IMG/VR virus record: IMGVR_UViG_3300032322_002570
Coordinates: 9,856-73,855 of that record
DNA length: 64,000 nt
Source of the DNA: a virus
Reading direction: 5' to 3' (one strand)
Part shown: positions 8,752 to 57,803 of the stretch, one piece after another
Position numbering within the stretch: the stretch's first letter is position 1
Layout of the letters: each line of letters begins with the position of its first letter
The notes under the pieces: model-generated
Told to the model about the DNA's origin: nothing
Seen by the model: only the letters and a program-made list of their open reading frames with translations
Database searches by the model: none
Translations under genes and position numbers: made by a program

Positions 8752-9107
8752 GACTCCTCTTGTTGACTGCCCTGATCATAGCACGTTGCACCCATGGAGT
8801 GCAATACCAGTTCGTGGACGCGGCGCAATCCGGCGACCATGAACTCGTACTCGCACGAGTCTGGAGTCAGGAAATACGGAAGCTCGCTGCAGCGATCGTT
8901 GACCTCGTCGACTCCTGCACGGAAAGCAGCGATAAGCTCCTCGTCGGTCGGCTCGGTATGCTGATGGCCGCAGTAGCAGCCGTTCGACCAGGCTAATCGC
9001 GTCTGACGATAGACGAACCGCTCGAGCTCCTCGTCTGGCTCCGGCGATGTGCTGCCTTCGTTGTACCACCAGCGTTCGAAGCGCTCCATTGCTTGATCCT
9101 GATTCAT
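8625..9107 (-). CDS. hypothetical phage protein
   Basis: FERWWYNEGS and PTDEEL motifs typical of small cyanophage hypotheticals. Confidence 0.6.
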   Translation of the reverse strand: MNQDQAMERFERWWYNEGSTSPEPDEELERFVYRQTRLAWSNGCYCGHQHTEPTDEELIAAFRAGVDEVNDRCSELPYFLTPDSCEYEFMVAGLRRVHELVLHSMGATCYDQGSQQEESCPESAQLWQSLECLPLPPLPKGYRTVATPAPEPSTPPLGSE

Positions 9108-20400: not shown

Positions 20401-21923
20401 TTAGCATGGACCTTACCGTTGACACGCTTTTCCGTGGACTTGAGCTGCATGCCAGGCTGGAGGTCTCGCGCCTCGATCCGCGTCCCGTCTTCTAAGATGA
20501 ACGCGTGATACGGAGTGACGGTGTAACTAATTCCGCAATGGAGTTCAACGCGGACAACTGGCTGATCGGTTCCGGTTACCCTGAAGTTGTCAATTTTTAC
20601 CCACCGGACACCGTCGAACACTTCAACCTCCCTGCCAACTAATGACTCGATCGGGAAATGCCCCTGCCTTGTCATAACCATGGTCCCCGGGATAAGGCAG
20701 GGGTTCAATCCGTACCGGTGCATCCTGTGGTGGATGATCCGGTCATTCGTGGGTTCGCCGACCTCTTTCGCGAGCGTCCTGATGTAGTTCGTCGCCGCAG
20801 TCTTGTCAGATCTATTGTACAACTTCAGGAAATGCTTCTTCTTGCCTGGGTCATCGAGCAGGTCGGCGTTTGCGCGCGCAATCGCCTCCGGCACATACTG
20901 GATCGCGCCTTCGCCACTGCCATGCTGCAGCGTCACTGCATCCAGGATCTCCTGGTACGTCGGCTTGTGATGCCAAGTCCGCGTGTGGTTCGCCATGCGA
21001 AGCGCCTCACGCTCCGGGTCCACGCTCCAATTACCATCCTCGTCTTGCTTGTATAGACCAAGCTTCGCGATTGCGGCCTCTTCGTCGTGCTCGCTGAACT
21101 GCCTCATACCCGCTGCGCGTCTAATGCTGCCGGCAACGACGGCGCTCGCAGCCTCGTCAATCAGCAGGCACGCCTCGATCGGCGTCAGCTTCCGCCCGTG
21201 GGCCTTCCCGAGCAGCGTCGTGACCCGCTCCAGGGTGGACCGAAGCTTAATCGGGTTCGACACCCCGCCAAACCCCTTCAGGCGATTTCCAGCCCCCCGC
21301 ACGTGCGTCAGATCAATGTTCACGAAGACGGGCTCATCCTCTTCGCCGCCGACCTCGAGCAGCCCCATCGCTATATTGATCAGTCCCTGATAGGCGTCGA
21401 CCCACCCCTGCCGGGAGTCGCCAACCGTGATGTCGACCGAGGTCGGATGAGTAAACTCGATCCCGGTACTCTCCTGCCCGCCATCGCTGTCGGGATCCTC
21501 CTTGACGGTCCCCAGCACGAGCTTGTGCTTGATCGGCGGAAGCTTGCCCACTACGTCCTGCTGGAGCACGGCGCCGGTGCCGGTACCGCACATGGCGAGC
21601 TCCATCAGTAGGCCGAACTGGGCCGGCTCATCGATGAAGCTCGACTGGCAGTTGTAGAAGCCGTAGAAGTTCTCGGGCTGCCGGCTCCAGTCGGTGCCGC
21701 TGACCCAAAGGGCCCGGCCACTGGGGAAGGCCTGCTGCTGTAGGGCAGCCTCCAGGCAGAGTTCGCGCTGCTCTTCGGTGAAGGAGCCGACCTCCGCGAT
21801 GCCATTCACGGCACGCGTCACGGCCTCAGTGAAGCTCTCCCGGGTGCCATCGTCTTTGCGACGGCTGTAGCTCCGATAGAAGACAGCAGGAGCACAGGGA
21901 GCGGACTCCAGGAAATCTGACAT
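17421..21923 (-). CDS. nrdJ: class II (B12-dependent) ribonucleotide reductase with two inteins
   Basis: VFYRSYSR, PSGRALW, YNC, VAGSIRR, NP|C-AE, TTVQPAG|SKSLL and C-terminal CxxxxC; start ATG 21923 after GGAAGACTA. Confidence 0.95.
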   Translation of the reverse strand: MSDFLESAPCAPAVFYRSYSRRKDDGTRESFTEAVTRAVNGIAEVGSFTEEQRELCLEAALQQQAFPSGRALWVSGTDWSRQPENFYGFYNCQSSFIDEPAQFGLLMELAMCGTGTGAVLQQDVVGKLPPIKHKLVLGTVKEDPDSDGGQESTGIEFTHPTSVDITVGDSRQGWVDAYQGLINIAMGLLEVGGEEDEPVFVNIDLTHVRGAGNRLKGFGGVSNPIKLRSTLERVTTLLGKAHGRKLTPIEACLLIDEAASAVVAGSIRRAAGMRQFSEHDEEAAIAKLGLYKQDEDGNWSVDPEREALRMANHTRTWHHKPTYQEILDAVTLQHGSGEGAIQYVPEAIARANADLLDDPGKKKHFLKLYNRSDKTAATNYIRTLAKEVGEPTNDRIIHHRMHRYGLNPCLIPGTMVMTRQGHFPIESLVGREVEVFDGVRWVKIDNFRVTGTDQPVVRVELHCGISYTVTPYHAFILEDGTRIEARDLQPGMQLKSTEKRVNGKVHANGAYLKGFLVGDGTYNKSQFTPVCKVYEPKHVCVDRLVESQREIGVKKYVARSGRVTGERFGLSDAGYLLNLGKSLEEDLSPWVSVYKKEFPKEVYNWTRQCQLDFIAGLFDADGTTLDSKNGYGYQIVSISREFLEGLGLLLHDIGIRFRISPPRPARYHDLGHRGGVCLNKESHRLSIGQAGAIKLAGLVEFTRLKDLSDRRCAYNMRYKGLKVSAVTDAGIAPAVYCCTVPTNNSFTLTGGIVSGQCAEILLCDNVCNLGDVHLNRIEPSDQPAQDRAFRAAALQVAGLLHHHFPSERLQYSRENDPIVGVSFTGLFDFFVTAFGESWLQWMMDGRPAKQGRAFVEAERQYLTHWRNIVGDEVRSYCLSQGIRIPNRYTTVQPAGCLDRTALRVFDQGLLYADDLLEPGSGETEVSGLSVRGGISAETGIANQPMELIRVTLKNKRVLRLTPDHRLLLESGEWCRAEDLAPGSRIQHSLGEYRNTSEAALIPVEAFAYTREARRESAGHSLGLLSVGISTPATMSPDLAYFLGALFGNGSMSERCHRIRFSMPAGSAVTIRLREVASKLFGLAGTIRDEERTTEFCLASRQLWDWMHLNGFEKGKSKELERVPLAIRVSSRESVLGFIAGLIDTDGCVRTKGHFSIDMASEAFIRNLQQIAEAVGIGCTVSHNTQGQSLQEEKDMWSLVMSRAATLPESRDFLNKFSEKCRARPLRSAKMTHSSYAPFTVSSVERDPEPDYTYDFSVSGVDDDDSWYFQGAIVSHNSKSLLTGASPGWHPPKAQRFIRRITFSKTDPIVGALKDYGYSVIPAQSARDDEGRLLDDVNDPRVHEVLVEIPVEVPWARLEGCDRHDLSRLPIEAQWGLYMQVQRHYSTHTTSATLEIRESEIETLAKLIHQDIQQDGGYMSAALLARFDDSQTFPRMPFEPIDLETYERLHQEVLDRRITDDIGLALSIHDDPAYNVTQQDGACTNGACVFKADLDEARGVS
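18096..19238 (-). mobile_element. intein 2 in NrdJ (LAGLIDADG), 381 aa
   Basis: QPAG|CLDRTA ... LTPDH ... IAGLIDTDG ... TYDFSV ... SHN|SKSLL. Confidence 0.93.
19656..20699 (-). mobile_element. intein 1 in NrdJ (LAGLIDADG), 348 aa, Gln C-terminus
   Basis: LNP|CLIPGT ... VTPYH ... GFLVGDG ... IAGLFDADG ... VYCCTV ... SGQ|CAEI. Confidence 0.92.
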
Positions 21924-21970
21924 TGATAGGCAAAGCAAGAGTTAGTCTTCCGCTTTCGCGGGCGTCGATT

Positions 21971-22432: not shown

Positions 22433-24010
22433 CTACAGTAGCGCACCACCCAGGTCAGCAAGCTTCGTCGTGACGTACTCCACAGCGGCCGGCTCGGCAC
22501 TAAGCGAGATCGTCGGCCTGACCAGTGGCCTGACGACCCTGCTGTAGCGCTGTTCGGAGACCGCCAGGATCGCCATCGCTTCACGGGGGCCGAACTCCGG
22601 CGAGAACTGCTCAAGATCCGACAGGCGGCGCCAGAACCAGACGTGCGCCGCACCAGCCAGAAAGCCCATCAGCGGGCGCAGCGTCTGCCTGAGGTGCGGG
22701 TAGTGGACGTACAGCCGCAGTGCTCGGCGTTCCACCTGGAACCTGACCCACTGCGGATCGGGCCTGGACCAGGCCGCATAGTGCGAGATCGTCGGCAGCC
22801 CAGAGATCCACCCCTTGGCCAGGGACGAGGCCGCCTCAGGCGTGGCCGCCAGCACCGCCGAGGCCTTGTCGACGTAGTGCTGCCTGAGGGCGGGCGACCT
22901 GATGGACTCTACCAGGTTGCGAATTGCCGTCTCTGCTGCAGAGAACTTCTTGGTGTCGGTCCTGTCAAGTCCGGCCAGCCAGGAGTCGATCTGCCAGTCG
23001 AGCCACGGCACCGCCGCCTCGATGATGCCGCCGAAGTCCATGCCAGCGTCGACGCAGTCAGCCGGATCCATCCCATCCGGGAGTTTGGCGATGCTGATGT
23101 TCGCTTCGCCCTTGCACGCGAACGGGCCGATCGCTGACACCGCCCGAGCAGTGGCGCTGGCGCCACCCTTATCGGCGTCCATGCAGAGCACGAAGTTCGA
23201 ACACTTCAGCATGAGCCTCTTGACGGCGGCCTCGCTTGGTATCGCCGTGCCCTGCAGTGCAACGACATTGCAGTGCCCAGCGCACCACAGCCGAATCACG
23301 TCAAGCTGCCCTTCGACTATCACCATGAAGCCAGCGTCCCTGGCAGCCTCCCAGGCCCTATGCTCATTGAAGAAAAGGCTTGACTTCTTGAAGATCTCAC
23401 TGTCTTTCGAGTTGATGTACTTCTCCTTGCCGGAGTAAAGCGGATCGATGACACGCTTCGAAAACCCAACAATCCTGCCGGCGTGATCGTGGATCGGAAT
23501 CGTGATTCTGCCACCGTCTGGGGCCCCGGCGTCCCATCCAAGCTCGAAGAATCGGCTGGCCTCTGCTGTCAGGCCGCGACCGAGTATCCAATCACGGGCC
23601 GATTCTCCAGTCCTGGAGCGAATTGCCTTCCGGTAGCGCTCATGCGCCCTGGTCAGCGACGAACGCTCTGACTCGATCCTGGCGCGACGTTGCCTCTGCG
23701 CCTCCTGGTCCTCGTCGTCCCTCAGGATCTCGACCGAGTGCTTCTCGGCGATGCGCTCGACAGCCTCTGCAAACGACAGTGAGAACTTCTGCTTCACGAA
23801 GTCGATCCCGTCCTTGCCACCGCCGCAGGCAAAGCAGAAGCAGATTCCCTTGGCGTCGTTGATCGTCAGCGACGGGTTGGTGTCGTTGTGCCACGGGCAC
23901 AAGGCGACCGCTTCACGGCCAACCTTCTTGAACGCGATCCCCTCCGACTCCAGGATCGCCGTGATCGGGACTGCCCTTACGGCCTCGATGGTGCCCTGTG
24001 AGATGCTCAA
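22433..24010 (-). CDS. dnaG: DNA primase (CHC2 zinc finger + TOPRIM)
   Basis: CPWHND..PS...CFAC, KYINS, VEGQLDV and DADKGG. Confidence 0.93.
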   Translation of the reverse strand: MSISQGTIEAVRAVPITAILESEGIAFKKVGREAVALCPWHNDTNPSLTINDAKGICFCFACGGGKDGIDFVKQKFSLSFAEAVERIAEKHSVEILRDDEDQEAQRQRRARIESERSSLTRAHERYRKAIRSRTGESARDWILGRGLTAEASRFFELGWDAGAPDGGRITIPIHDHAGRIVGFSKRVIDPLYSGKEKYINSKDSEIFKKSSLFFNEHRAWEAARDAGFMVIVEGQLDVIRLWCAGHCNVVALQGTAIPSEAAVKRLMLKCSNFVLCMDADKGGASATARAVSAIGPFACKGEANISIAKLPDGMDPADCVDAGMDFGGIIEAAVPWLDWQIDSWLAGLDRTDTKKFSAAETAIRNLVESIRSPALRQHYVDKASAVLAATPEAASSLAKGWISGLPTISHYAAWSRPDPQWVRFQVERRALRLYVHYPHLRQTLRPLMGFLAGAAHVWFWRRLSDLEQFSPEFGPREAMAILAVSEQRYSRVVRPLVRPTISLSAEPAAVEYVTTKLADLGGALL

Positions 24011-24651
24011 CGATTTTCGACGAACTTGCGGAAACGAACAGCGAGCGCCGACGGCGGGCGGCGCAGGCGACCCCGACTGTACTCCTCCAATTGCCGTCTG
24101 AGGACCGGTGGCATCGCCTCGATCAGCGCCTCAGCCTCTCGCTCGTAGGAGGATAGGTCAAAGGCCTCTTCGGCTTCTAGCGCCTTTCCTGGCAGCGAGT
24201 GGTCTTTCAGTTCCAGCGGTGGGCCAGAGCACGCAAGCATCACGTCCTGCCATTCTTCGGCGTCGATCTCGAGCTTAGCACAGATCTGCTCGTCCGTGGC
24301 ACCCTCCAGGATCATTCTGCGCCCTTTGACCCAGAGCTCTCGCATCCGGTGGGACAGGCGCATGGAGTAGGTGCGGTCCCTGATGTAGTGCAGGATCGCG
24401 CCGCGAATGTATGGAACAGCGAGCGACGAGAACCGCATCGTTCGGCCGGTGCGCACGCTGACCAGGCCGGCATCGTACTTGGCCGCCGCCTGGCATAGGC
24501 CCTCGAATGCAGCGCTCTGCAGGATCGAGAACTCGATGCCGGTCGATCGCTGGTAGCGCCAGGCGATCTCCCGTGCCAGGTTGATGTTATCGGCAGCAAG
24601 CTTCTGCTGCTCGCGTGTCAGCCTGAAGTCTGGCTCTCTCTTTGCTGCCAA
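24007..24651 (-). CDS. RNA polymerase sigma factor, SigF/SigB-like
   Basis: NINLAREIA, GLCQAAAKYD, FSSLAVPYIRGAILHYIRD (region 2). Confidence 0.88.
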   Translation of the reverse strand: MAAKREPDFRLTREQQKLAADNINLAREIAWRYQRSTGIEFSILQSAAFEGLCQAAAKYDAGLVSVRTGRTMRFSSLAVPYIRGAILHYIRDRTYSMRLSHRMRELWVKGRRMILEGATDEQICAKLEIDAEEWQDVMLACSGPPLELKDHSLPGKALEAEEAFDLSSYEREAEALIEAMPPVLRRQLEEYSRGRLRRPPSALAVRFRKFVENR

Positions 24652-32928: not shown

Positions 32929-33030
32929 GCGCTCGGATCCCTTTTGTTTCGGCACCTGCTCGACTGGCTCCTTAACACAGTATATCGTCCCTCCCATGCC
33001 GGTATACTAGAGTGTAGATCGACCCGTGCA

Positions 33031-33261
33031 ATGTCCGAAACCCTTGGTCAGATCGTTCGCGACATTCGCGATCAAATCAGTGGAACCGTCAGCAGCGGCG
33101 GAAACTCGATTCCCCCATGGGACTACCGCCAGTTCTCGTACTCCGGCGGCAACCTGACCACCGTGACCTACAAGAGCGGTGGCGCTGCGGGTGAGGTGGT
33201 TGCGGTGCAAACGCTTGCCTATGACGGAAGCGATAAGCTAATCAGCGAGACCTGGAGCTGA
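33031..33261 (+). CDS. small virion-associated protein
   Basis: YSGGNLTTVTYKSGG; first gene after GGTATACTA. Confidence 0.6.
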   Translation: MSETLGQIVRDIRDQISGTVSSGGNSIPPWDYRQFSYSGGNLTTVTYKSGGAAGEVVAVQTLAYDGSDKLISETWS

Positions 33262-33265
33262 TCTG

Positions 33266-33826
33266 ATGGCCTATCGATTTAACCCTTTTTCCGGCACGCT
33301 GGATCTCGTTGGCGAGGGAACGATTGAGTCGGGACTGCAGCCCGGAGACGAGCTTACGGAACTTGGCAGTGGTGATGCGGCACAGGGACAGGTGCCGGCA
33401 GCAGATGGAGAAGGCGGAATCACATGGGAAGATCCGCAGTCGGGCGGCGTCGTGCAGCGCAGCACCGCCTCCGTGACCCTGACGGCTTTGGCTGGCGGCG
33501 CCACTGGCACCGGCACAATCACGCTGCCGAGGGCCTGCACGATCCTGAGCATCGAGACAAACCGCGCCGGATGGGTGAGGCTCTATGACAGCGCAGCCGC
33601 AAGTGCCGCCGACGCGTCACGACTACGAACGGCCGATCCCGGTCCTGATGATGGCGTGATCGCTGAGGTCATCACTACTGGAGCGGCAACAGCGGTGCCG
33701 TCTAACAAGCCTATTGCTGCAAACGCTGAGACGACACCGACTACCTCCTACCCTGTCAGGGTCACGAATGACGGGGCCACTGGGGATTTCACCGTGACCA
33801 TTACCCACATCCAAATCCAACCCTGA
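33266..33826 (+). CDS. putative tail fibre-associated protein
   Basis: MAYRFNPFSGTLD N-terminus; WVRLY...DASR...P..GVIAEV. Confidence 0.6.
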   Translation: MAYRFNPFSGTLDLVGEGTIESGLQPGDELTELGSGDAAQGQVPAADGEGGITWEDPQSGGVVQRSTASVTLTALAGGATGTGTITLPRACTILSIETNRAGWVRLYDSAAASAADASRLRTADPGPDDGVIAEVITTGAATAVPSNKPIAANAETTPTTSYPVRVTNDGATGDFTVTITHIQIQP

Positions 33827-33828
33827 TC

Positions 33829-34818
33829 ATGGCCGTCACCAAGCAGACCTACACCGCTACCGCCACCTGGACCGCATCAGGGCTGGCAGACATATTCCGC
33901 TCGGCATTTATTGATGCTGGCCTGATGACCGAATGGCACGACGCCTTCCTGTCGGGCTCCATTGAGAACCGTGTCCTTGCCGTTGCATACAACGCAGCCA
34001 AGACGTATGGCACAACCTATTACTGGTTCCAGTTCACTACTGGCGGTGTGTTCTACAGCAACGCAAGCGGGTGGAACGCTGCCAGCGACATCCCCAGCGG
34101 GACGCAGTATCTGGACTTCTATGCCACTACGACCAACGCCACGACAAACCACGTGCAGCTTCTTGCACTGGCCACAAACACGACCGTAACGCTGACCCGT
34201 TACACGTCGAGCAACATGACCTTTTTCCTGTTGCGGAGCGGTTCCAATAGCTTGCCGTTTTGCATTGACAGTCCTGGCGTCACTTTTCAGTCGTGGGCTG
34301 ACCTTGACAGGGGCTATCACAACGGTCTTCTAAGAGTGTCCACAGAGCTAGCAACCACGACAGCGGGCGTTCGATTTTCAACGCTTTTCAGATGCAGAAG
34401 GGCCTTCCTGGATGGATGCGTGAACTATGGTAGCACTCTTGTAAACAACAACTACAACGACGAAATTCCAATCAGCAAATTTGCTTTCTTTGGCGCAGTT
34501 TCAAACAGCCCTAACAACGTTTTTGGCGCATCTTCTCCAGAATCGGGATTGGCGCTCCCATACGCGACAACCGCTGGGAACCCGGCATTTGCTGCCGGGT
34601 TCTCTCCTGTTTATACGGGACTCCAGCTTCAATCGGTTCTTTCTAGCACGATGCCAGACGACTTTGGGATCTTCGCTTCCAGGGCTGTCAACACCTGGTC
34701 GGTTCAGGACACACTGACCGTTACCGCTGGCGTCGAAGAGTATGAGGTTCTTTCCCGAGCCAACGGCGCTGGCGTTGCCGGGCAACCTTCTGCACTCGTG
34801 CTTGCGAGGACCGTCTGA
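33829..34818 (+). CDS. putative virion structural protein
   Basis: 329 aa, Thr/Ser/Ala-rich beta protein in the late operon. Confidence 0.6.
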   Translation: MAVTKQTYTATATWTASGLADIFRSAFIDAGLMTEWHDAFLSGSIENRVLAVAYNAAKTYGTTYYWFQFTTGGVFYSNASGWNAASDIPSGTQYLDFYATTTNATTNHVQLLALATNTTVTLTRYTSSNMTFFLLRSGSNSLPFCIDSPGVTFQSWADLDRGYHNGLLRVSTELATTTAGVRFSTLFRCRRAFLDGCVNYGSTLVNNNYNDEIPISKFAFFGAVSNSPNNVFGASSPESGLALPYATTAGNPAFAAGFSPVYTGLQLQSVLSSTMPDDFGIFASRAVNTWSVQDTLTVTAGVEEYEVLSRANGAGVAGQPSALVLARTV

Positions 34819-35012
34819 TGCCTGAATCCATTACACCAGCAGCAGGAATCAGCACCAGACCCGCTGCGACTGAAACCCTGTCAAGTTTTGCTCCCGACCT
34901 TGGTGGCACTGAGCAGCTTGACCGAGTTGCGTTCGATGCCCCATCCGGGCCCGGCCCCGAGCCGACTCGCCCTGCTGCAGGTTGGATATTCCCGAGAGGC
35001 TTATCTCTCTAG
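34818..35012 (+). CDS. hypothetical protein
   Basis: 64-aa coupled ORF ending in RPAAGWIFPRG. Confidence 0.5.
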   Translation: MPESITPAAGISTRPAATETLSSFAPDLGGTEQLDRVAFDAPSGPGPEPTRPAAGWIFPRGLSL

Positions 35013-35046
35013 TTGCCGCACTCGTTCTGTTTCCTGACTCATTCCA

Positions 35047-38000
35047 ATGGCTTCCGATCTGATCCAGTTCATTCAGTCAAGCCTCTCTGAGGCGCAGGCA
35101 ACAGAGGCTACGCTCGCCGCCCGCATTGCTGATCTCGACGCAGCAAACACCGAAATCGCGGAACTCGAGGCCGAGCTTGCGGCGGCCCAAGAACGCATCA
35201 GGGAGCTTGAAGCCCTCCAGAACAAAGTCCCCGTAGGCGGTGCTGACACGCTGGCCGCTACTCAGGATACCCGGGTCACTTACTCAGCGGCTCAGCTACT
35301 CGCAAACGACAGTGACGCTGATCCCGGCGATGTGCTCAGGATCGCCAGCGTTGCCAGCGGCACTGGTGGAGCAGTGGTGCTCAATGCGGACGGTACCGTT
35401 ACGTTTACGCCCGCTGCTGGCTTTAGTGGCGCCGCAAGTTTCGTCTACACCGTCACCGATGGGAAAGCGGCTTCCGCCTCTGTCAGCGTGACCGTGAACG
35501 TTGCCCCTGCTACCCCGCCAACTGCCAGACAGACCATTCTCACCACCCAAGTTCCGGTTGACCTGAATCGCAGTGATAACCAACCGTGGGAGGTTGGTGT
35601 TCGATTCACAACTGCTGTTGATGGTCTGATTACCGCAATTCGTTTCTTCAAGAGCGCTGGTGAAACCGGCACTCGCACCGGCAAGTTGTGGACTGACAGT
35701 GCGCAGCTTGGATCTGTTGCATTTGCCAACGAAACTGCATCTGGCTGGCAGGAGCAGGCGTTTTCGACTCCAATCCAGGTTCGTGCAGGGACTGTCTACA
35801 CGGCAAGCGTAAACATCAACCGTTTCTACACGGCGACCAACAACGGATTTGCTTCCGCAATCACAAACGGAAGCTTGACGGCTCCTGTCCAGGCCGGTCG
35901 TTACGGCGGCACTGTAAACGCTCGTCCGAACGCCATCTTTGCCAATCAGAACTACTTTGTCGATGTGGTGTTCGTTGCGCAAGAGCAGCCAACAACAGCA
36001 CTGGATTTTTCAATTCAGGGCGAAGCCGATGCGGCGCAGTTTCTGCGCACCGCCACCATGGGGCCAACGCTAAGCGAAATCACTACGCTGGCAGCGTCCA
36101 ACAACGCAGAAAGCTGGTTCGATGCTCAGGTTGCAGCCAGTTATGACGGCAGCCAATTTGCCGAATGGACACCGGGCGCCAGTGGCAAGTTCACCAGGAA
36201 ACCGGGCTGGATCGCTCAGGTCAACTCATGGATGACGCTTCCCCGTGGCGAAGCGTTCTCAAACGAGGGCATCGACTCTGGCGAGGGTCACGCCGACAGA
36301 CCGCAGCGGCAATGGTATAACTATCGAATGATTGACACGGGCTTACTTTACAACAACCCGCCTGTTGGTGGATTGTGCAACCCAACAAGTGCTGCTGCTC
36401 CCAGGGCGCCGCAGAAATCGCTGATGCTGCGGCTGTCGTGGATTATGTCGAAGTTCATTGTGACTTCAATTCCTGGCGGAGGTGTAGAGCGGACTAGGTA
36501 TGACGGTCCAGCCTGGTACGAACTGATCTCCCGCCACGTATTCGGCAACTACGCCGACTTCCTGGAAGAAGTAACGTACTCTTTCCCAATGGCCAAAATG
36601 TTGACCCATTACGCAAATGCGCGTGGGCCGCAGGCCGATCAAAACTTCGCGCGAGAAATCGTGCAACTAATGACCATGGGCATTTGGTCGCTCAACGACG
36701 GCGGTGTGCCGTTGCTCGATCAGAGCGGTCAGCGAGTGCCCAATTATGTCAACCAGGATATTGTTGAGCTTTCCAAGGTCTACACCGGACTGGTGCATCC
36801 GTGGTTGCTGAATGAGCAGGTTTACTACCAGGATCCAGCTCCTGAGATTTTCCGTGCCGGCTTCTCGCTGACCACGGATCAAAGATGGATTAGGGATCAT
36901 TTCGGTGCACACTTTAGAGGTGTTTCTGGCAACGACCGCGTTAGCCGCTCAAACGAGATTGACGTTCGATTCACTAACTACGGCTATCGCAAGCCCCTCA
37001 GCCGTGTTGAAGCGGGCAAACGGTATCGGATTGCCAGCGTCAGCAATGGCGCTGCGTTCGCGTCCATAGGTGCCGACAGCACTCCGGCTGTCGGAGAGGT
37101 GTTTCTGGCAACGGCTGATGGCACGTCCGCCATGGTCAGCGCGGGGCTTGTCGAAGAGCAGCACATCAGCTTCGCCGGCTCCTATCCGCGCCTTAAAATC
37201 TCTGCAGGACTGCATGATTTTGGTGCGGTTTCAATCCCGCGATTCAACATCAACATCCCTGCTGGCACTGATCCAGAGACTGAAATCCGCCTGGTCACGA
37301 AAGCGCTGGTCAACCATCCCAGCACTGCACCCTATGTCTGCACACGGCTGATTCGTTTCGCTACTACAGCCAATCCATCACCGGGCTACGTGTCTCGGGT
37401 TGTTCGGGTGTTCCGCGACAACGTAGACAACCCGCAGCAAATGGCCGCTGTGTGGAAAGCAATTCTGTTTGATCCAGAAGTGAGAACAGGCACCCGCACC
37501 AATGCTGCCAATTTTGGCAGGCTGCGTGATCCGTATGAACTGTTTACCGGCCTGATTCGCCCGCTCGGATTTACGTCTCATCATACCAGCGACCGAAACG
37601 AAGTTGCCTGCTTCTACCGTGGGCCCGGAAATCAAAATGGGATGGCCCCTGCTGTTGCTCCTAGTAACAAGCAGGCTGGATTCCTATTTGTTACGGAGCG
37701 GGATGATGATGACTGGGACGCTCAGGTGTTGCTCGGTGTTTATCCCACCAGGGCGCCATCAATTTTTGGACACTACCCGCCTGACGGGACAATGCCAGGG
37801 GACACTGAAATCCTGTCTCCAGAATCAATCCTTTATACGCCTGGCCGCCTAAGTAGCGTCAGCAGAGTGCTGGAGCGGCTGATCAGCTTCGGGCCAAACG
37901 CATACCGCACGATTAACCGATCTGCGGTTGACCAGCCGATTTTGGTTGGCAGCTTGGCTCCAATCACGTATGACTGGTTGCCGACCAGTACACCGGCGGC

Positions 38001-38157
38001 TCTGGTAAACAGGCTTGATCTGCTGCTGACCGGCGGGCGTACACCCGCTAATCGGCAACAGGAAATTATCACGGCAATCACGCCTTTAAGCGGTGAAAAC
38101 CGTGTCGGCTTGGTCGCACAGACCCTGATCAATTCCCCAGACTTCTATCGCCAGTGA
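35047..38157 (+). CDS. multidomain protein: coiled coil + cadherin/Ig-like + DUF4082 + DUF1800
   Basis: LLANDSDAD..FTPAAGFSG..FVYTVTDG (Ig); EVGVRF..DG.ITAIRFFK..ETASGWQ..NYFVDVVF (DUF4082); AAQFLRTATMGPT, DQNFAREIVQL, HPSTAPYV, NPSPGYV, GRLRDP (DUF1800). Confidence 0.85.
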   Translation: MASDLIQFIQSSLSEAQATEATLAARIADLDAANTEIAELEAELAAAQERIRELEALQNKVPVGGADTLAATQDTRVTYSAAQLLANDSDADPGDVLRIASVASGTGGAVVLNADGTVTFTPAAGFSGAASFVYTVTDGKAASASVSVTVNVAPATPPTARQTILTTQVPVDLNRSDNQPWEVGVRFTTAVDGLITAIRFFKSAGETGTRTGKLWTDSAQLGSVAFANETASGWQEQAFSTPIQVRAGTVYTASVNINRFYTATNNGFASAITNGSLTAPVQAGRYGGTVNARPNAIFANQNYFVDVVFVAQEQPTTALDFSIQGEADAAQFLRTATMGPTLSEITTLAASNNAESWFDAQVAASYDGSQFAEWTPGASGKFTRKPGWIAQVNSWMTLPRGEAFSNEGIDSGEGHADRPQRQWYNYRMIDTGLLYNNPPVGGLCNPTSAAAPRAPQKSLMLRLSWIMSKFIVTSIPGGGVERTRYDGPAWYELISRHVFGNYADFLEEVTYSFPMAKMLTHYANARGPQADQNFAREIVQLMTMGIWSLNDGGVPLLDQSGQRVPNYVNQDIVELSKVYTGLVHPWLLNEQVYYQDPAPEIFRAGFSLTTDQRWIRDHFGAHFRGVSGNDRVSRSNEIDVRFTNYGYRKPLSRVEAGKRYRIASVSNGAAFASIGADSTPAVGEVFLATADGTSAMVSAGLVEEQHISFAGSYPRLKISAGLHDFGAVSIPRFNINIPAGTDPETEIRLVTKALVNHPSTAPYVCTRLIRFATTANPSPGYVSRVVRVFRDNVDNPQQMAAVWKAILFDPEVRTGTRTNAANFGRLRDPYELFTGLIRPLGFTSHHTSDRNEVACFYRGPGNQNGMAPAVAPSNKQAGFLFVTERDDDDWDAQVLLGVYPTRAPSIFGHYPPDGTMPGDTEILSPESILYTPGRLSSVSRVLERLISFGPNAYRTINRSAVDQPILVGSLAPITYDWLPTSTPAALVNRLDLLLTGGRTPANRQQEIITAITPLSGENRVGLVAQTLINSPDFYRQ

Positions 38158-38162
38158 TTGCC

Positions 38163-39494
38163 ATGACTTTCTCACCTGAACTCAAGGCGTCTCTGGCGCC
38201 ACTCCGCCCAAGTGACTTTAAGGTTATCATCTGCTTCTTTGCCTTTGGTGGCCGCGATTCGCACAATGAGTTAGTCCCACGTAGCGGGAACAATCTGAGC
38301 CGGTACAATGAAGCCCGCCCCGGTGGCTTGCGCATTGAGCAATCGGAACTGCTTTCTCTGAATGGAAATAGCGCATGGGGATTGCACCCAAATATGGGCT
38401 ATTTCCGAGATCAGTGGAACGCAAACAGATTGGCTGTGCTGCGTCATGTAGGCATCCTGAACGAACCCGCCACCAGGACGCAACTACGTGAACAGCCGAG
38501 CCGGTACGAACCGCAGTTTCTTGGAGCGCATGACGCGCAGTGGGAGCAGTGGCAGGACGGCCTGGAGTTTCGCTCAGTAGCTCGGACTACTGGCTGGATG
38601 GGGCGACTCGCTTCGCTCCTTGAGGGAGTCTGGAACGTGCCAACTGCAGCAGCAGACAACGATCTGATGCTGAGCTGTGTATCCATCGGTGGCCTCAGTC
38701 GGCAACAAAGGGCATTTCCGCCTGACGGCTCTGTAGCGCTGCCAGTGGAAGCCAGGCCCGGAGCATTTGGGTATGGCTCCAGCCAGGCAACTCGCCTGCG
38801 AGAGCTTTTCACCGAGGCCGAAGGTGCTGGGCTGCCTGCTGCTGTTGACGCCAACCGCATTAGGCAGGGCTGGAAGCGTCAGGCACAAAAAAACCTAGCG
38901 GCTCCTGGGTTTATTCAAGGCCAGCTTCGCGCATTGCCCCAAGCTGTATCTGATGCTCTGGCCCCTGCGCCGCAGCTCCGCCCGATAGCCCAGGCGATCT
39001 ACACAGCCCAACAGAATCAGGCACTTGGCATCAGGCGACTAGTCGCTTTTGTGCCAATCGGCGGCTGGGATCACCATGCAAACCTGCGGCCTCAGCATGA
39101 TCCGCTGATTCTCGGCCTCAACAATTCTATGGCAGCGATGGCAGCGGCCATCAACGCCATGGGGCTTACGAACAGCGCGGTGCTTTGCACACAGAGCGAA
39201 TTTGGCCGCACATTCCGTGGCAACAGCAACGCAGGTACAGACCACGCATGGGCGGGCCATCAGTTTGTGATGGGCGGGCCAGTCATTGGAGGCATGTATG
39301 GCCCTGAGCCGAATTACGCCCCTACCGGCGAACACGTTGCTGACGACAGCGGCAACATTTTTATTCCGCAGATCAGCACGGATCAGTATTACGCTACGCT
39401 GCTGCGGTGGTTCGGCTTACCAGTGGATGCCATCAACGCTGTGCTGCCAGGGGCTTCGCGGTTTACACCCCAAACCCTGAACTTTGTGCCTTAG
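38163..39494 (+). CDS. DUF1501 family protein
   Basis: FKVIICFFAFGGRDSHN, GLHP, GWMGRL, GGWDHH, SEFGRT..NAGTDHAWAG, IPQISTDQYYATLLRWFG. Confidence 0.88.
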   Translation: MTFSPELKASLAPLRPSDFKVIICFFAFGGRDSHNELVPRSGNNLSRYNEARPGGLRIEQSELLSLNGNSAWGLHPNMGYFRDQWNANRLAVLRHVGILNEPATRTQLREQPSRYEPQFLGAHDAQWEQWQDGLEFRSVARTTGWMGRLASLLEGVWNVPTAAADNDLMLSCVSIGGLSRQQRAFPPDGSVALPVEARPGAFGYGSSQATRLRELFTEAEGAGLPAAVDANRIRQGWKRQAQKNLAAPGFIQGQLRALPQAVSDALAPAPQLRPIAQAIYTAQQNQALGIRRLVAFVPIGGWDHHANLRPQHDPLILGLNNSMAAMAAAINAMGLTNSAVLCTQSEFGRTFRGNSNAGTDHAWAGHQFVMGGPVIGGMYGPEPNYAPTGEHVADDSGNIFIPQISTDQYYATLLRWFGLPVDAINAVLPGASRFTPQTLNFVP

Positions 39495-42780: not shown

Positions 42781-44877
42781 ATGGCCCTACGGGCGCGGCG
42801 TGGCATCCTCACCCGATCCAATCGGCGCAACTTTGCTGCGACCACTGCGCCGGTTCGCCCTGGCGCCTGGAGTGATGTAGCTGAATCGCTGTTTGGGCGC
42901 ATTGATGCGCTTGACGGCAGCGTAGTTGCGCAGTATTCCGGTGCTACGGCCTCCACGACCGTCGGAAGCGTGAGTGCGGCCGGGGCCGGTACGGCGGGGT
43001 ATTCAGTCGCATCCTCATCGACAACGCAAGGCCAATGGACAGCCAGTAGTGCTGTCAATGCCACTGGAGATTATGTCGGTGGCACCGCAGCAACGACGGC
43101 GTCCTCTTGGGCGGCCTTGGCCAGCGCAACAGCAGCCCACGCCGGGCCAGGCACTAGCGTTGCTGCGGCCATCAACGCGGCGACTGGCACCGCATCCGCG
43201 AGCTGGACTAGCGCGGCGACGGCAACAACGGCGGCAGGATGGACCGGATCGGCATCGGCCTCCGGCGACTATCTGGGCCCTGGTACAACGACGGCGCATG
43301 GTACTCACGCCGCTACGGGCGCGGCGACGGCAGGCCACATAGGTTCCGTCAACACCACGACGGCCGGCTCTTACTTGGGAGACGGAGCGGCCACTGCTCG
43401 GTACGACGGCTCCCAGGGCGAAGCGGTCGGCGGAACGTGGTCCGTCATCTTAAGCGGTACTGGCGGATACGAGGGCGCGAGCAATGCGGCAACCGCTGCA
43501 TCTAACACAGCTACTGGCACTGCGGGTTCGCAACATACTGGCTCGACATGCGAAACCGCACCAGGGACTAACACAGCAAGCGGCGGCGCTATCGCTGACT
43601 ACACTGGCGCGGTTGTCGAAACGACGACAGGAACATACGCAGCCGCTGGTGGAACAGGGAACACTGGCGTCTATTCAGGCGGGGACACGGCGGCTCAGGA
43701 TGCAGTATGGGAAGCCAGCGCTACTGCCGTCGGAAGCCACGGGGGTACATCAAGCAATACATCGAGCTGCGAATACGAGGCCAACGGCTCTGCGCTGGCA
43801 GTCTGCACAGGAGTAGCAGGTGGAACAGAGCAGGCCGAGTGGGTCACGCGTGGCGATTGCCTGTCGGCGTGGGGCGGGGAGTCGGGTGCAATCACCGTCG
43901 GCGAATGGGTCGCCAATGGTGGTACTGGCTCCACGGGTGAATACGGAGGCACTGCTGGCACGGTAGTCGCCGGCTCCACGCAGGCATCCGGATCCGCATT
44001 GGCGCCGAGCCCTGGCAGCGAAGCCGACACTGGCAGTGGCGCATGGCAGGCCTCTGTATCGGTCTCAGCGGCATACCTGCCAATCGATTTGAACGTCAAT
44101 GCCGCAGAGTGGAATAGCGCAGGGGCTGGGATAGCTGAGTACAGCGCTACTGGAGATGCCAGTGTCGCCCAAGCGAGTTGGACTGCTGGCGTGTCCTCCA
44201 ACGCTGGATACGCGGGCGGGAGTACCACAACTTCGAGCGGCACGTGGAGCGTTGCCGGCGGCGCGTCGTCGTCCTTCAGTGGCACAGAGGCAGATACCAC
44301 TCAGGCTAATTGGACGGCCGTGTCCACGAGTAACGGTCTTGGCGAATACGTCGGCCCAGGAACTGCTGCATCAGCAGGGCAATGGTCGGCCATAGGAGGG
44401 GCGACGTCTAGTTCTGCCGGCTCGGAGACGACACCGATCGCGGCGGTATGGGGAGGGGCCGGAAGCGCTGCGCCGTCGTGGGCAGGGGATCAGGCTGCAA
44501 TAGTCGGCGGCCAATACGCGGGACGGGTGCATCAACTAGCGATATGGACTGGCTACCAGTCTTCGCCGGGAAGCGCCGCGTGGGCGGCTCACGGCAGTGC
44601 AGTCGCTACTCACAGTGGTGCAAACAGGTCGACCGAGTATGCCGTATGGATTGCGGAATGCGATGCCATCGCAGCATTCGGTGGTGATACAGCCCTCGTG
44701 TGGCCGGCAGAATGGGTCTCGACGGCGACAGGTAGCACAATACTGTACTGGTACGACAGTAATCTGGACGAATGGAGGCCGGGATCTCTGATGAGATGGA
44801 GTACGGCGAGGGGCGCGTGGGAGAACGCCGAATGTCGCGCATTCTCTGGTGGTGAGTGGCGTTCTGTTAGCGGCTGA
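42781..44877 (+). CDS. Gly/Ala/Thr/Ser-rich periodic repeat protein (fibre/beta-solenoid)
   Basis: Alternating 10/12-residue spacing of W/Y/H/N over roughly 580 aa; Trp-rich C-terminal cap. Confidence 0.7.
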   Translation: MALRARRGILTRSNRRNFAATTAPVRPGAWSDVAESLFGRIDALDGSVVAQYSGATASTTVGSVSAAGAGTAGYSVASSSTTQGQWTASSAVNATGDYVGGTAATTASSWAALASATAAHAGPGTSVAAAINAATGTASASWTSAATATTAAGWTGSASASGDYLGPGTTTAHGTHAATGAATAGHIGSVNTTTAGSYLGDGAATARYDGSQGEAVGGTWSVILSGTGGYEGASNAATAASNTATGTAGSQHTGSTCETAPGTNTASGGAIADYTGAVVETTTGTYAAAGGTGNTGVYSGGDTAAQDAVWEASATAVGSHGGTSSNTSSCEYEANGSALAVCTGVAGGTEQAEWVTRGDCLSAWGGESGAITVGEWVANGGTGSTGEYGGTAGTVVAGSTQASGSALAPSPGSEADTGSGAWQASVSVSAAYLPIDLNVNAAEWNSAGAGIAEYSATGDASVAQASWTAGVSSNAGYAGGSTTTSSGTWSVAGGASSSFSGTEADTTQANWTAVSTSNGLGEYVGPGTAASAGQWSAIGGATSSSAGSETTPIAAVWGGAGSAAPSWAGDQAAIVGGQYAGRVHQLAIWTGYQSSPGSAAWAAHGSAVATHSGANRSTEYAVWIAECDAIAAFGGDTALVWPAEWVSTATGSTILYWYDSNLDEWRPGSLMRWSTARGAWENAECRAFSGGEWRSVSG

Positions 44878-55745: not shown

Positions 55746-56612
55746 GTGGCAGGAAGAAAATTGAAGGAAGCTGTCGCAACAACAGACTCTGTTCACCACT
55801 GGATGGAGGGGGCCGCCAGCGTTCGAGTTCTGGGGGCCGACGAGGTCATTGCCATCACCAGAAAGATCCAAGCGCTGCCGGAAGACAGCGCAGCCCGCAA
55901 GCGGCTTGTCAACAAGCTAGTGAGGCACAACCTGAGGTTGGCCGTCCGGTTTGTCAAGAACTTTATGGGCTGCACCCGCAGTGGATGGGACGGCGCTGAC
56001 ACTCTCGACTACCTCCAGGTAGCCGCCATGGGGCTTGTCCGGGCGGCGGAAAAGTTTGACCCCGCTCGCGGCTACACATTCTCGACCTATTCGCTGCACT
56101 GGATGCGAAGCTATGTCTCAAGGTACCACATAAAAAATCGCACGCCGATCTATGTGCCGGAGTACGCATCCAGGGCTGCTCAGTTCTATAAGCGCAATGG
56201 CTACCTGACCAAGAAGTCCGGCAGACCCGTGAGCGACGAGGACGCAGCAGAGCTCGTCAGACAGACCGAACTCGCGATCGGCTGGGTTTCACTTGACCAG
56301 CCGGCCGGCGAGGAGGAGTACAGCGGACGGACGGGCTGCGCCAGTATAGCGGACACCATCGAAGATGAAGCACCGCTGCCGGATCCAGCAATCACGTATG
56401 ACACTATGCTGCAGGGCCTCAGGGAAGCTGGTCTTAGCGAGCAGGCGGTAGCGCTGATGGTCGGCCTGTTCGTCGAGAACAAGACCGGCGCAGAGATGGC
56501 AAGGGAGCTTGGGCTGTCGTACCAGAAGGTGAAGAAGCTCAAGGCTGACTCGATCGAACGGGCCCGAAAGAACCAGAAAGCATTTGAGCCGCTTATACTG
56601 GTAATGCAATAG
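55746..56612 (+). CDS. RNA polymerase sigma-70 family factor (RpoD/group 2-like)
   Basis: LVRHNLRLAV, GLVRAAEKFDPARGYTFSTYSLHWMR, SLDQP, C-terminal HTH. Confidence 0.9.
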   Translation: MAGRKLKEAVATTDSVHHWMEGAASVRVLGADEVIAITRKIQALPEDSAARKRLVNKLVRHNLRLAVRFVKNFMGCTRSGWDGADTLDYLQVAAMGLVRAAEKFDPARGYTFSTYSLHWMRSYVSRYHIKNRTPIYVPEYASRAAQFYKRNGYLTKKSGRPVSDEDAAELVRQTELAIGWVSLDQPAGEEEYSGRTGCASIADTIEDEAPLPDPAITYDTMLQGLREAGLSEQAVALMVGLFVENKTGAEMARELGLSYQKVKKLKADSIERARKNQKAFEPLILVMQ

Positions 56613-57371: not shown

Positions 57372-57803
57372 ATGGAGGGCTTCGATTCTTTCTCTCAGTT
57401 CGAGGCTATCCCAGGTGCAGTGGGGGCGTTCGTCGACGACTTGCCCCCGCTCACTCATGCGCAGATCAAGCCGTTTGTGATCGCCATCCTGCTCAAGCGT
57501 GGCGGCGTCTCGCCTCACGAGGTCGTCGCCGCAATGAATGCGCACTGCCGCGATGAGGAAACCAAAGAAGGAGGGTGGGACCCGATCGACGAAGATTGGA
57601 CCGAAGGCACCCTGCTCGAGAAGATGGTCGACGAGGTTTTTGGCAAAATGGTCGCCGATGGCGAGCTTGAGTACAGCGAAAAACGTAATACCTGGAAGAT
57701 ATCACCTGGATCTCTTCGTAGCGTGATACAATGGTGCACGTGCATGGGGGCACGGATCCCCGCACACCTCTTCATGGACCTCGGACTGCAGATACACAGA
57801 TGA
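57372..57803 (+). CDS. hypothetical wHTH-like protein
   Basis: 143 aa, coupled to dcd. Confidence 0.55.

What the first reader, a model, noticed from the sequence alone, without database searches (positions are those of the whole stretch)
35047..39494. DUF1800-DUF1501 pair recruited into the virion gene block and fused to coiled-coil/Ig/DUF4082 domains
Seen: clear DUF1800 and DUF1501 motifs in adjacent genes, in the middle of a run of tail and fibre genes downstream of a GGTATACTA late motif. The DUF1800 gene has an N-terminal heptad coiled coil, a cadherin-like Ig repeat and DUF4082. Neither protein shows a signal peptide, and the DUF1501 lacks a twin-arginine leader. Established: DUF1800+DUF1501 is a widespread, tightly linked bacterial pair of unknown function, and DUF1501 usually carries a Tat leader. 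Inference: the phage has dropped the export signals and tethers this probable metalloenzyme complex (DxxN, WDHH, TDH residues retained) to the particle, which could be an undescribed virion-displayed enzymatic or adhesive system.
Basis: partly seen in the sequence, partly recalled or inferred. Interest (0 to 1): 0.8.

Follow-up and report, generated by a model that had tools for sequence, protein, structure and literature searches.

The report
Phage fibre carrying DUF1800–DUF1501 enzyme pair
A cyanophage carries a signal-less copy of a widespread, uncharacterised bacterial periplasmic two-protein enzyme, and related phages attach the same pair to tail-fibre anchors, so it is probably a new kind of enzyme-bearing host-recognition fibre.

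Summary
Window 35047-38157 encodes a coiled coil, a cadherin-like Ig domain, DUF4082 and DUF1800. Window 38154-39494 encodes DUF1501. Neither protein has an export signal, and there is no room for an alternative upstream start.

In a survey of 134 complete pairs, all 125 cellular pairs carry a signal on at least one partner. Only the 9 phage-context pairs (4 distinct) lack one on both.

The leaderless DUF1501 proteins form one small clade (FastTree support 100), about 28 of 13,599 family clusters. Where context is available, its members lie between baseplate and tail-fibre genes. Their DUF1800 partners carry different N-terminal tail anchors.

The DUF1501 model is an alkaline-phosphatase-superfamily fold (Z 17-18 to PafA and NPP). 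Its putative metal ligands are conserved in all 111 sequences compared. The DUF1800 core matches no solved fold.

One-leader pairs and natural single-chain fusions suggest the two proteins form a complex.

Best reading (0.55): a virion-displayed, fibre-type binding and esterase module. This is not proven for this phage. Its N-terminus has no recognisable virion anchor, the canonical tail module is not on the contig, and the "late motif" is only a general -10-like element. The same stretch was also noted once before in this scan, from an overlapping window.

The parts
33001..33009 (+). GGTATACTA, a -10-like promoter element about 22 nt upstream of the first ATG of the operon
   Evidence: 12 sites with up to 1 mismatch against 2.1 expected. 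Aligned sites fit GGwATnCTA/TAnnnT and lie 25-40 nt before start codons of both structural and replication genes.
33031..33261 (+). small ORF (76 aa), first gene of the block
   Evidence: phrog_26903, unknown function, E 5.4e-14.
33266..33826 (+). 186-aa protein with a cyanophage-specific fibre-cluster domain
   Evidence: phrog_9627. 32% identical to the C-terminus of S-CBS2 gp031 'structural protein'. Homologues occur only in cyanophages. In S-WAM2 the homologue lies between tail fibre and tail or virion structural genes.
33829..34818 (+). 329-aa hypothetical protein of a mainly viral family
   Evidence: No Pfam, PHROG or phage tblastn match. The nearest Atlas clusters are 57-81% viral.
34818..35012 (+). 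64-aa ORF that overlaps the previous stop codon
   Evidence: ORF list; no family match.
35047..38157 (+). 1036-aa fusion protein: coiled coil, Ig, DUF4082 and DUF1800
   Evidence: Pfam. This architecture was found only on the window's own contig among 5.8 billion proteins.
35047..35220 (+). N-terminal heptad coiled coil (residues 1-58)
   Evidence: No Pro or Gly; I/L at 'a' positions 9, 23, 30, 37, 44 and 51. Weak match to phrog_4341, E 1e-4.
35221..35502 (+). cadherin-like / bacterial Ig domain (residues 59-152)
   Evidence: Cadherin_5 E 1.4e-24, Big_9 E 5.4e-19. Matches PDB RTX protein 36gk at E 4.8e-8.
35548..35961 (+). DUF4082 domain (residues 168-305)
   Evidence: PF13313 E 8.4e-35. The closest named relatives are cyanobacterial (Nostoc, Komarekiella), 45-47% identical.
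36013..38154 (+). DUF1800 domain (residues 323-1036), mostly helical
   Evidence: PF08811. Model pLDDT 73.8, pTM 0.83. No PDB fold found: Foldseek best E 0.65, VIA wide best Z 3.9.
36973..37182 (+). subfamily-specific insert in DUF1800, possibly a small SH3-like barrel
   Evidence: The insert is present only in the window, L087 and the phage-context copies. Weak FeoA/DtxR SH3-like match: Z 3.9, 56 residues aligned, rmsd 3.1.
38154..39494 (+). leaderless DUF1501 protein with an alkaline-phosphatase-superfamily fold. Its start overlaps the DUF1800 stop codon (GTGA); alternatively it starts at the ATG at 38163.
   Evidence: Pfam. Model pLDDT 83.7. Z 17-18 to PafA, NPP and choline sulfatase. Conserved site residues. 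Junction sequence.

Best explanation
The two genes encode a two-subunit module. DUF1501 is an alkaline-phosphatase-superfamily metallo-esterase, closest in fold to PafA and NPP, and it binds the helical DUF1800 protein. In cells the pair is exported folded to the periplasm, and often only one partner carries a leader. In a small clade taken up by tailed phages both proteins lack leaders, and the DUF1800 N-terminus carries virion-attachment or spacer modules instead. In this phage those modules are a coiled coil, a cadherin-like Ig domain and DUF4082. In other phages they are minor-tail or fibre anchors. The complex would therefore be built into the particle as the distal head of a side or tail fibre. 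There it would bind, and probably hydrolyse, a phosphate-ester (less likely sulfate-ester) group on a host envelope glycan, as a receptor-recognition or receptor-modifying step. Shown: the domains, the absence of signals, the clade, the gene contexts in other phages, the fold and the residue conservation. Inferred: complex formation, virion incorporation in this phage, catalysis and the substrate.
For: 1. Domains and lack of signals. 2. Signals across 134 complete pairs: 60 Tat+lipobox, 32 Tat+none, 23 Tat+hydrophobic, 8 Tat+Tat, 2 none+Tat. The 9 pairs with none on either partner are the window and the phage-context loci. 3. Clade: the 19 leaderless DUF1501 proteins form one clade with support 100. 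The exhaustive profile search shows a score gap after 28 leaderless clusters out of 13,599. 4. Contexts in other phages. L006: Baseplate_J, Tail_P2_I, DUF1800, DUF1501, a 977-aa protein with a gp5-like motif, TerL. L007/L008: baseplate genes, the pair, then a 1660-aa tail fibre (phrog_529, E 1.7e-171). L010: a 1521-aa tail fibre, a virion structural protein, the pair, then three tail proteins. 5. Swapped N-termini on DUF1800: P0251 residues 2-161 match phrog_356 'minor tail protein' at E 1.3e-12; L006 gives weak matches to phrog_677 and phrog_9627. 6. In the window the pair lies in one tightly packed gene block with a cyanophage fibre-cluster domain gene. 7. Fold: Z 17-18 to PafA, NPP and choline sulfatase. 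8. D35, H126, D306, H308, R352, D363 and H364 are 100% conserved in all 111 sequences. 9. Complex formation: pairs with a single leader; single-chain DUF1800-DUF1501 fusions in L079, L082 and L084; a median gap of 9 nt between the two genes. 10. Established knowledge, from memory (Fraser et al. 2006): Ig-like domains in phages occur almost only in virion proteins.
Against: The N-terminus of the window protein has no recognisable virion anchor. It resembles nothing else in this genome or in S-CBS2. The pair is not next to a recognisable baseplate or tape measure gene here. The S-CBS2-type tail module seems to lie off the contig. Several flanking genes are unassigned or endonuclease-like. There are no expression or proteome data. 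The closest relative (L087) carries a Tat leader on DUF1800 and looks cellular, so the leaderless DUF1501 clade is not exclusively phage. The nucleophile position (T107) is only inferred from sequence order.
Confidence: 0.55

Rival explanations
1. Non-structural auxiliary enzyme. The pair stays in the infected cell's cytoplasm, or is released at lysis, and scavenges phosphate or remodels nucleotides or envelope precursors, like the phoA/pstS-type auxiliary genes of cyanophages. It is not part of the particle.
For: The alkaline-phosphatase-superfamily fold is closest to phosphatases and phosphodiesterases. There are no export signals. No recognisable virion anchor is present on the window protein, and non-structural genes lie nearby. 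From my own knowledge, cyanophages are known to carry phosphate-stress genes.
Against: Ig and DUF4082 modules and a coiled coil are hard to explain on a cytoplasmic enzyme. Homologous pairs sit inside baseplate and fibre clusters, and DUF1800 is fused to tail-protein N-termini. In the window the pair shares a gene block with a fibre-cluster gene.
Confidence: 0.2
2. Structural but purely adhesive. The complex is displayed on the virion as a receptor-binding head that uses the old active site only as a ligand pocket, without turnover.
For: Same context evidence as the best explanation. The clade has its own fixed substitutions next to the site: H37 and R312 are invariant in the clade and variable in the Tat-type proteins. 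That could mark a change of function.
Against: Every putative metal ligand is retained in all 19 clade members across 30-54% sequence identity. That would not be expected if catalysis had been lost.
Confidence: 0.15
3. Passenger or artefact. A bacterial DUF1800-DUF1501 locus was joined to phage DNA by mis-assembly, or it is a recent non-functional acquisition.
For: GC content is slightly lower at 34-38 kb (0.556-0.561) than the window average of about 0.60. The nearest relative lies in a contig binned to a bacterium.
Against: Both flanks are phage genes with S-CBS2 synteny on the same strand, and neighbouring starts and stops overlap. The ORFs are intact with conserved sites. The unique fusion to Ig and DUF4082 and the lack of any leader argue for adaptation. 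The same kind of pair recurs in other viral contigs.
Confidence: 0.03

Closest known systems
Bacterial DUF1800 (PF08811) + DUF1501 (PF07394) periplasmic gene pairs
   Same: Same two families, same gene order, and tight coupling (median gap 9 nt). The DUF1501 site residues are identical.
   Different: Cellular pairs always carry at least one export signal: Tat on DUF1501 in 123 of 125, and on DUF1800 in L087. The window pair has none. Its DUF1800 is fused to a coiled coil, Ig and DUF4082, and it belongs to a separate clade with extra inserts.
Enzymatic tail fibres and tailspikes of phages (depolymerases, esterases)
   Same: A modular protein with an exchangeable N-terminal virion anchor and a C-terminal enzyme or binding head, encoded next to baseplate and fibre genes in the related contigs.
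   Different: As far as I recall, known tailspike enzymes are single-chain glycosidases, lyases, SGNH esterases or peptidases. Here the candidate catalytic subunit is a separate alkaline-phosphatase-superfamily protein riding on a helical partner of unknown fold. No phage record among 50,697 has a genuine counterpart.
NPP / PafA-type two-metal phosphoesterases (alkaline phosphatase superfamily)
   Same: Fold match with Z 17-18 over 244-269 residues. The order of conserved Asp, Thr, Asp-x-His and Asp-His residues along the sequence parallels the NPP metal ligands and nucleophile. That comparison is from memory of NPP, not a superposition.
   Different: About 8-12% sequence identity and no sequence-level match to any PDB chain. 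It has an obligatory DUF1800 partner. Substrate unknown.
Tat 'hitch-hiker' complexes (e.g. hydrogenase small/large subunits, DmsAB)
   Same: In 34 of 125 cellular pairs only one partner carries a leader, which implies export as a pre-folded complex.
   Different: This is inferred from signal distribution only. No experimental evidence exists for this family.

Membership tests
DUF1501 (PF07394) | Pfam HMM score above the gathering threshold | tested here: met
   82.8 bits against a cut-off of 27.
DUF1501 (PF07394) | Family-invariant motif residues (GGxDxxN, GG[WF]DxH, GTDHxW) | tested here: met
   D35, D306, H308, D363, H364 and W366 are invariant in all 111 sequences, including the window protein.
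DUF1501 (PF07394) | Twin-arginine leader (typical of the family, not defining) | tested here: not met
   No RR motif and no hydrophobic N-terminus; an in-frame stop lies 19 codons upstream. 147 of 161 complete homologues surveyed have the motif.
DUF1800 (PF08811) | Pfam HMM score above the gathering threshold | tested here: met
   136.7 bits against a cut-off of 26.1.
DUF1800 (PF08811) | Gene immediately upstream of, and coupled to, a DUF1501 gene | tested here: met
   The stop and start overlap (GTGA). The same arrangement is seen in 153 pairs.
Alkaline phosphatase superfamily (NPP/PafA branch) | Core alpha/beta fold | tested here: met
   VIA-align Z 18.2 to 5too (264 aligned, rmsd 3.9) and Z 17.8 to 7mw8 (244 aligned, rmsd 3.3). 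Foldseek E 7.7e-6 to sulfatases.
Alkaline phosphatase superfamily (NPP/PafA branch) | Bimetal site ligands and a Thr/Ser nucleophile at structurally equivalent positions | tested here: inconclusive
   The candidate ligands are invariant. T107 is T or S in 19 of 19 clade members and 66 of 92 Tat-type proteins. No residue-level superposition was available.
Type I (formylglycine) sulfatases | C/S-x-P-x-R formylglycine motif after the second strand | tested here: not met
   No such motif in the window protein. Only 5 of 111 homologues have any [CS]xPxR in the first 200 residues.
Phage tail fibre / receptor-binding proteins | Encoded within a baseplate or tail-fibre gene cluster | tested here: inconclusive
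   Met for relatives L006, L007/L008 and L010. In the window only the upstream 186-aa gene is of fibre-cluster type, and the canonical tail genes are not on the contig.
Phage tail fibre / receptor-binding proteins | N-terminal domain homologous to known virion anchors | tested here: not met
   For the window protein there are only weak coiled-coil matches to PHROGs of unknown function, and nothing similar in its own genome or in S-CBS2. The feature is met in relative P0251 (phrog_356, E 1.3e-12).
Phage tail fibre / receptor-binding proteins | Presence in purified virions | not testable with these tools
   Needs virion proteomics or cryo-EM.

The most novel reading that the evidence does not exclude
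DUF1800-DUF1501 is a previously unrecognised class of phage receptor-binding and receptor-modifying module. It would be a two-subunit alkaline-phosphatase-superfamily esterase that unrelated tailed phages mount on their fibres by swapping N-terminal anchors. Its host-surface target would then reveal the long-unknown substrate of the more than 13,000-cluster bacterial DUF1800/DUF1501 family, for example phospho-substituted envelope or secreted glycans.
Probability: 0.4. Interest if true: 0.75.

Novelty: new variant of a known kind. Interest (0 to 1): 0.66.

Why it matters
DUF1800 and DUF1501 form one of the large, tightly linked bacterial gene pairs with no known function. The exhaustive search found 13,599 DUF1501 clusters.

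- **An experimental handle.** A phage that displays the pair on its particle would provide a defined biological target, the host receptor, from which the substrate could be worked out.
- **A new enzyme type for phage fibres.** It would add an alkaline-phosphatase-superfamily, two-subunit enzyme to the known repertoire of tail-fibre activities.
- **Testable evidence on the cellular pairs.** The survey suggests the two proteins form a complex exported by Tat hitch-hiking.
- **Relevance to cyanophage ecology.** A new host-recognition module bears on host range in estuarine and marine Synechococcus.

Tried and rejected
The contigs of clade members P0008, P0014, P0016 and P0017 (41-114 kb) could not be inspected. 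Single-protein scans of viral contigs with them returned only loci already held.
- **Phage record searches.** tblastn of both proteins against 50,697 phage records gave nothing for the DUF1800 fusion. It gave two weak DUF1501 hits, which are UNVERIFIED high-GC records, one with a Tat leader. I set these aside as probable bacterial contamination.
- **DUF1800 fold.** Foldseek against PDB (best E 0.65) and the wide VIA search (best Z 3.9, and only on the insert) gave no usable match. The 714-residue model was searched whole, so a weak domain match could have been missed.
- **LamG idea.** I suspected LamG/ConA-like lectin domains in the ~640-aa C-terminal extensions of leaderless DUF1501 proteins P0298-P0305 and P0291. 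Pfam found nothing there, so this is unconfirmed.
- **GT2 link.** I looked for GT2 synthase genes next to the pair in other loci, following PMC5122149. BLAST with the phage's own GT2 found none. That search is only sensitive to close relatives.
- **Virion anchor.** No other protein in this genome or in S-CBS2 shares the N-terminus of the fusion protein.
- **'Late' promoter.** The motif also precedes replication genes, so that reading is not supported.
- **Type I sulfatase.** Rejected, because there is no formylglycine motif.


Full report
**What the window is.** The window is 64 kb of a 73,855-bp single-contig phage genome.
- It encodes TerL, portal, a primase, an RNR interrupted by inserts, thymidylate synthase, exonuclease VIII, a DnaB-like helicase, sigma factors and an endolysin.
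- TerL is 54-55% identical to that of the cyanosiphoviruses S-CBS2 and S-CRES1-3, and many genes are syntenic with S-CBS2.
- The contig has no terminal repeat. It holds no tape measure or tail tube gene. By S-CBS2 synteny the main tail module would lie beyond the contig end, next to 62671-63957. The genome is therefore probably incomplete.

**Checking the observation.**
- The product of 35047-38157 (1036 aa) has Cadherin_5/Big_9 at residues 59-152, DUF4082 at 168-305 and DUF1800 from about 323 to the end. The product of 38154-39494 (446 aa) is DUF1501.
- Residues 1-58 have no Pro or Gly and show I/L at seven successive heptad 'a' positions.
- Neither protein has a hydrophobic N-terminus or an RR motif. 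In-frame stops 3 and 19 codons upstream leave no room for an alternative start.
- The two genes overlap (GTGA), or are 5 nt apart if the ATG at 38163 is the start.
- The full fusion architecture was found only on the window's own contig among 5.8 billion clustered proteins.
- GGTATACTA at 33001 is real, and the motif is over-represented: 12 sites against 2.1 expected. It looks like a -10 element (TAnnnT). It also precedes RNR, DprA-like and endonuclease-like genes, so it cannot be called late.
- Genes from 33031 to 39494 are packed or overlapping, consistent with one operon.
- The 186-aa gene in that block (33266-33826) has homologues only in cyanophages. It matches the C-terminus of S-CBS2 'structural protein' gp031. 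It also matches a gene in S-WAM2 that lies between tail fibre and tail or virion structural genes.
- The other neighbours are unassigned.
- So 'in the middle of tail and fibre genes' is only partly true for this phage.

**The export-signal survey.** I fetched 164 loci from viral, metagenome and genome collections.
- Of 161 complete DUF1501 proteins, 147 have an RR-type leader and 14 do not.
- 134 pairs have both genes complete. Their signal combinations, written as DUF1501 signal / DUF1800 signal, are shown below:

| DUF1501 / DUF1800 signal | Pairs |
|---|---|
| Tat / lipobox | 60 |
| Tat / none | 32 |
| Tat / other hydrophobic N-terminus | 23 |
| Tat / Tat | 8 |
| none / Tat | 2 |
| none / none | 9 |

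- One of the nine 'none / none' pairs (L007) was flagged hydrophobic by the heuristic; I count it as signal-less because the hydrophobic stretch lies inside its 277-residue fibre-type N-terminal extension rather than at the N-terminus.
- Every cellular pair thus has a signal on at least one partner. The nine pairs without any are the window and the phage-context loci, four distinct types.
- The two 'none / Tat' pairs are the tandem pairs of L087. This is an 11-kb contig binned to Wenzhouxiangella and is the window's closest relative, at 42% (DUF1800) and 49% (DUF1501) identity. Its DUF1800 proteins begin MKRRTFLQG.
- In the window, the leader position on DUF1800 is occupied by 322 residues of coiled coil, Ig and DUF4082.

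**Evidence for a complex.**
- The 34 one-leader pairs imply export as a folded complex.
- Three loci (L079, L082, L084) encode DUF1800 and DUF1501 as one chain in the same order.
- The median gap between the two genes is 9 nt.

**The leaderless clade.**
- In a FastTree of 111 non-redundant DUF1501 sequences, the 19 leaderless ones form one clade (support 100, stem 0.8). The window groups with the two L087 copies, P0004 and P0006. This tree was not repeated with a slower method, because the first attempt timed out.
- An exhaustive profile search of 1.84 billion representatives found 13,599 DUF1501 clusters. The best 28 (335 bits or more) align from residue 1-3; 27 of them have no RR-type motif, and P0286 has a weak KRLFF match that is not a twin-arginine. 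From 306 bits down, matches start at about residue 30-45, and 34 of the next 40 have RR.
- The clade and L087 share DUF1800 inserts that canonical proteins lack.

**Context of clade members.**
- L003/L006/L012/L014 (GC 41%): Baseplate_J, Tail_P2_I, DUF1800 (808 aa), DUF1501, a 977-aa protein with a gp5/gpV-like 'GRVKA...SDWMYV' motif, then TerL.
- L007/L008: divergent baseplate genes, DUF1800 (948 aa), DUF1501, then a 1660-aa tail fibre (phrog_529, E 1.7e-171).
- L009-L011: a 1521-aa tail fibre or virion structural protein, a 264-aa virion structural protein, DUF1800 (738 aa), DUF1501, then three phrog_5939 tail proteins.
- The DUF1800 N-termini differ between these types. They extend 68, 134 and 277 residues before the domain.
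- P0251 begins with 160 residues of the phrog_356 'minor tail protein' family (E 1.3e-12). P0250 has a collagen-like start with a weak tail-fibre match.
- Exchangeable anchors on a constant distal domain are the usual design of receptor-binding proteins.
- BFVD holds one DUF1501 protein from an uncultured Caudovirales phage. In the nearest Atlas cluster, Uroviricota is the commonest phylum among members with a record.
- No genuine counterpart exists among 50,697 deposited phage records.

**Biochemistry.**
- The DUF1501 model (pLDDT 83.7) is an alkaline-phosphatase-superfamily fold. VIA-align gives Z 18.2 to PafA, 17.8 to Xanthomonas NPP and 17.5 to choline sulfatase, with 244-269 aligned residues at rmsd 3.3-4.0 Å.
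- D35, H126, D306, H308, R352, D363 and H364 are invariant in all 19 clade members and all 92 Tat-type sequences.
- T107, the candidate nucleophile by sequence order, is T or S in 19 of 19 clade members and 66 of 92 Tat-type proteins.
- H37 and R312 are fixed only in the clade.
- There is no formylglycine motif, so it is not a type I sulfatase.
- The DUF1800 core (pLDDT 73.8, pTM 0.83) is mainly helical and matches no solved fold. Its clade-specific insert weakly resembles an SH3-like barrel.
- The literature holds no function for either family. One paper reports bacterial chitin synthase (GT2) genes co-transferred with DUF1800 and DUF1501 (PMC5122149), which hints at a polysaccharide-related role.

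**Interpretation.** The best-supported reading is that this phage displays a DUF1800-DUF1501 complex on a fibre.
- Coiled coil, Ig and DUF4082 would act as stalk and auxiliary binding modules. DUF1501 would be a metal-dependent esterase acting on a phosphate-ester (less likely sulfate-ester) group of a host surface glycan.
- **Shown:** the architecture, the lack of signals, the clade, the contexts in other phages, the fold and the residue conservation.
- **Inferred:** complex formation, incorporation into this phage's particle, catalysis and the substrate.
- **Main rivals:** a cytoplasmic auxiliary enzyme (0.20), a purely adhesive head (0.15) and an assembly artefact (0.03).
- **Weak points for the window itself:** no recognisable anchor, the missing tail module, and the closest relative looking cellular.

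**Novelty.** Enzyme-bearing fibres are a known kind. A two-subunit alkaline-phosphatase-superfamily module of two DUF families in that role appears undescribed: the literature search found nothing on it. I rate it a new variant of a known kind. It has added value because it offers a route to the function of a very large uncharacterised bacterial family.

Noticed in passing
window 6123-7859 (-) and 5392-6480 (-): The phage encodes a GT2 processive-type glycosyltransferase (Glyco_trans_2_3 E 2.4e-13, Glyco_transf_21), followed by an unassigned 362-aa gene. PMC5122149 reports bacterial GT2 chitin synthases co-transferred with DUF1800 and DUF1501, so a functional link with the pair 29 kb away is conceivable. 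BLAST found no GT2 next to the pair in other loci.
   Followed up: partly
window 4146, 17422(-), 22220(-), 33001, 40089, 41487, 44889, 62598(-): A GGwATnCTA element (a -10-like TAnnnT) lies 25-40 nt upstream of many start codons, before both replication and structural genes. There are 12 sites against 2.1 expected. It is probably the phage's main promoter -10 box. The phage encodes two sigma-factor-like genes (24007-24651 and 55746-56612).
   Followed up: partly
whole contig (G000, 73,855 bp); window 62671-63957 (-): No tape measure, tail tube or baseplate gene is recognisable anywhere on the contig, and there is no terminal repeat. By synteny with S-CBS2 the tail module should lie beyond the contig end, so the genome looks incomplete.
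   Followed up: partly
L087 295-8510: An 11-kb contig binned to Wenzhouxiangella carries two tandem DUF1800-DUF1501 pairs. In both, the Tat leader is on DUF1800 (MKRRTF[LI]QG) and DUF1501 is leaderless, the reverse of the usual arrangement.
   Followed up: yes
L079 2503-6717; L082 145-7113; L084 1-5298: These are natural single-chain DUF1800-DUF1501 fusions of 1404, 2322 and at least 1765 aa. The L082 product starts with a eukaryote-like signal peptide and low-complexity Thr/Ala repeats.
   Followed up: partly
proteins P0298-P0305 and P0291: Leaderless-clade DUF1501 proteins of about 1,070-1,096 aa (748 aa for P0291) carry a beta-rich C-terminal extension, with an internal duplication in the long forms. 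Pfam does not recognise it. Their genomic context is unknown.
   Followed up: partly
window 17421-21938 (-) and 57731-59452 (+): The RNR gene (1505 aa) has internal stretches matching helicase and endonuclease PHROGs. The dCTP deaminase gene (573 aa) contains an HNH endonuclease segment. Both are consistent with inteins.
   Followed up: no
window 42781-44877 (+): A 698-aa protein made almost entirely of G/A/S/T with regularly spaced W/Y. It has no family match. It lies where S-CBS2 has collagen-like or PE_PGRS-like structural genes, so it may be a fibre.
   Followed up: partly
L167 (S-WAM2) 7449-9107: In cyanomyovirus S-WAM2 a subtilisin-like serine protease is annotated inside the tail-fibre cluster, directly after the homologue of the window's 186-aa gene. 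This is another case of an enzyme gene among fibre genes.
   Followed up: no
L168 (ON170345.1) 5227-6411; L169 (MT837425.1): Two 'UNVERIFIED' phage records (GC 67% and 74%) contain DUF1501-like sequence. The Ralstonia one starts with a Tat leader (MERRDFLKAG). They are probably bacterial DNA in phage records.
   Followed up: yes
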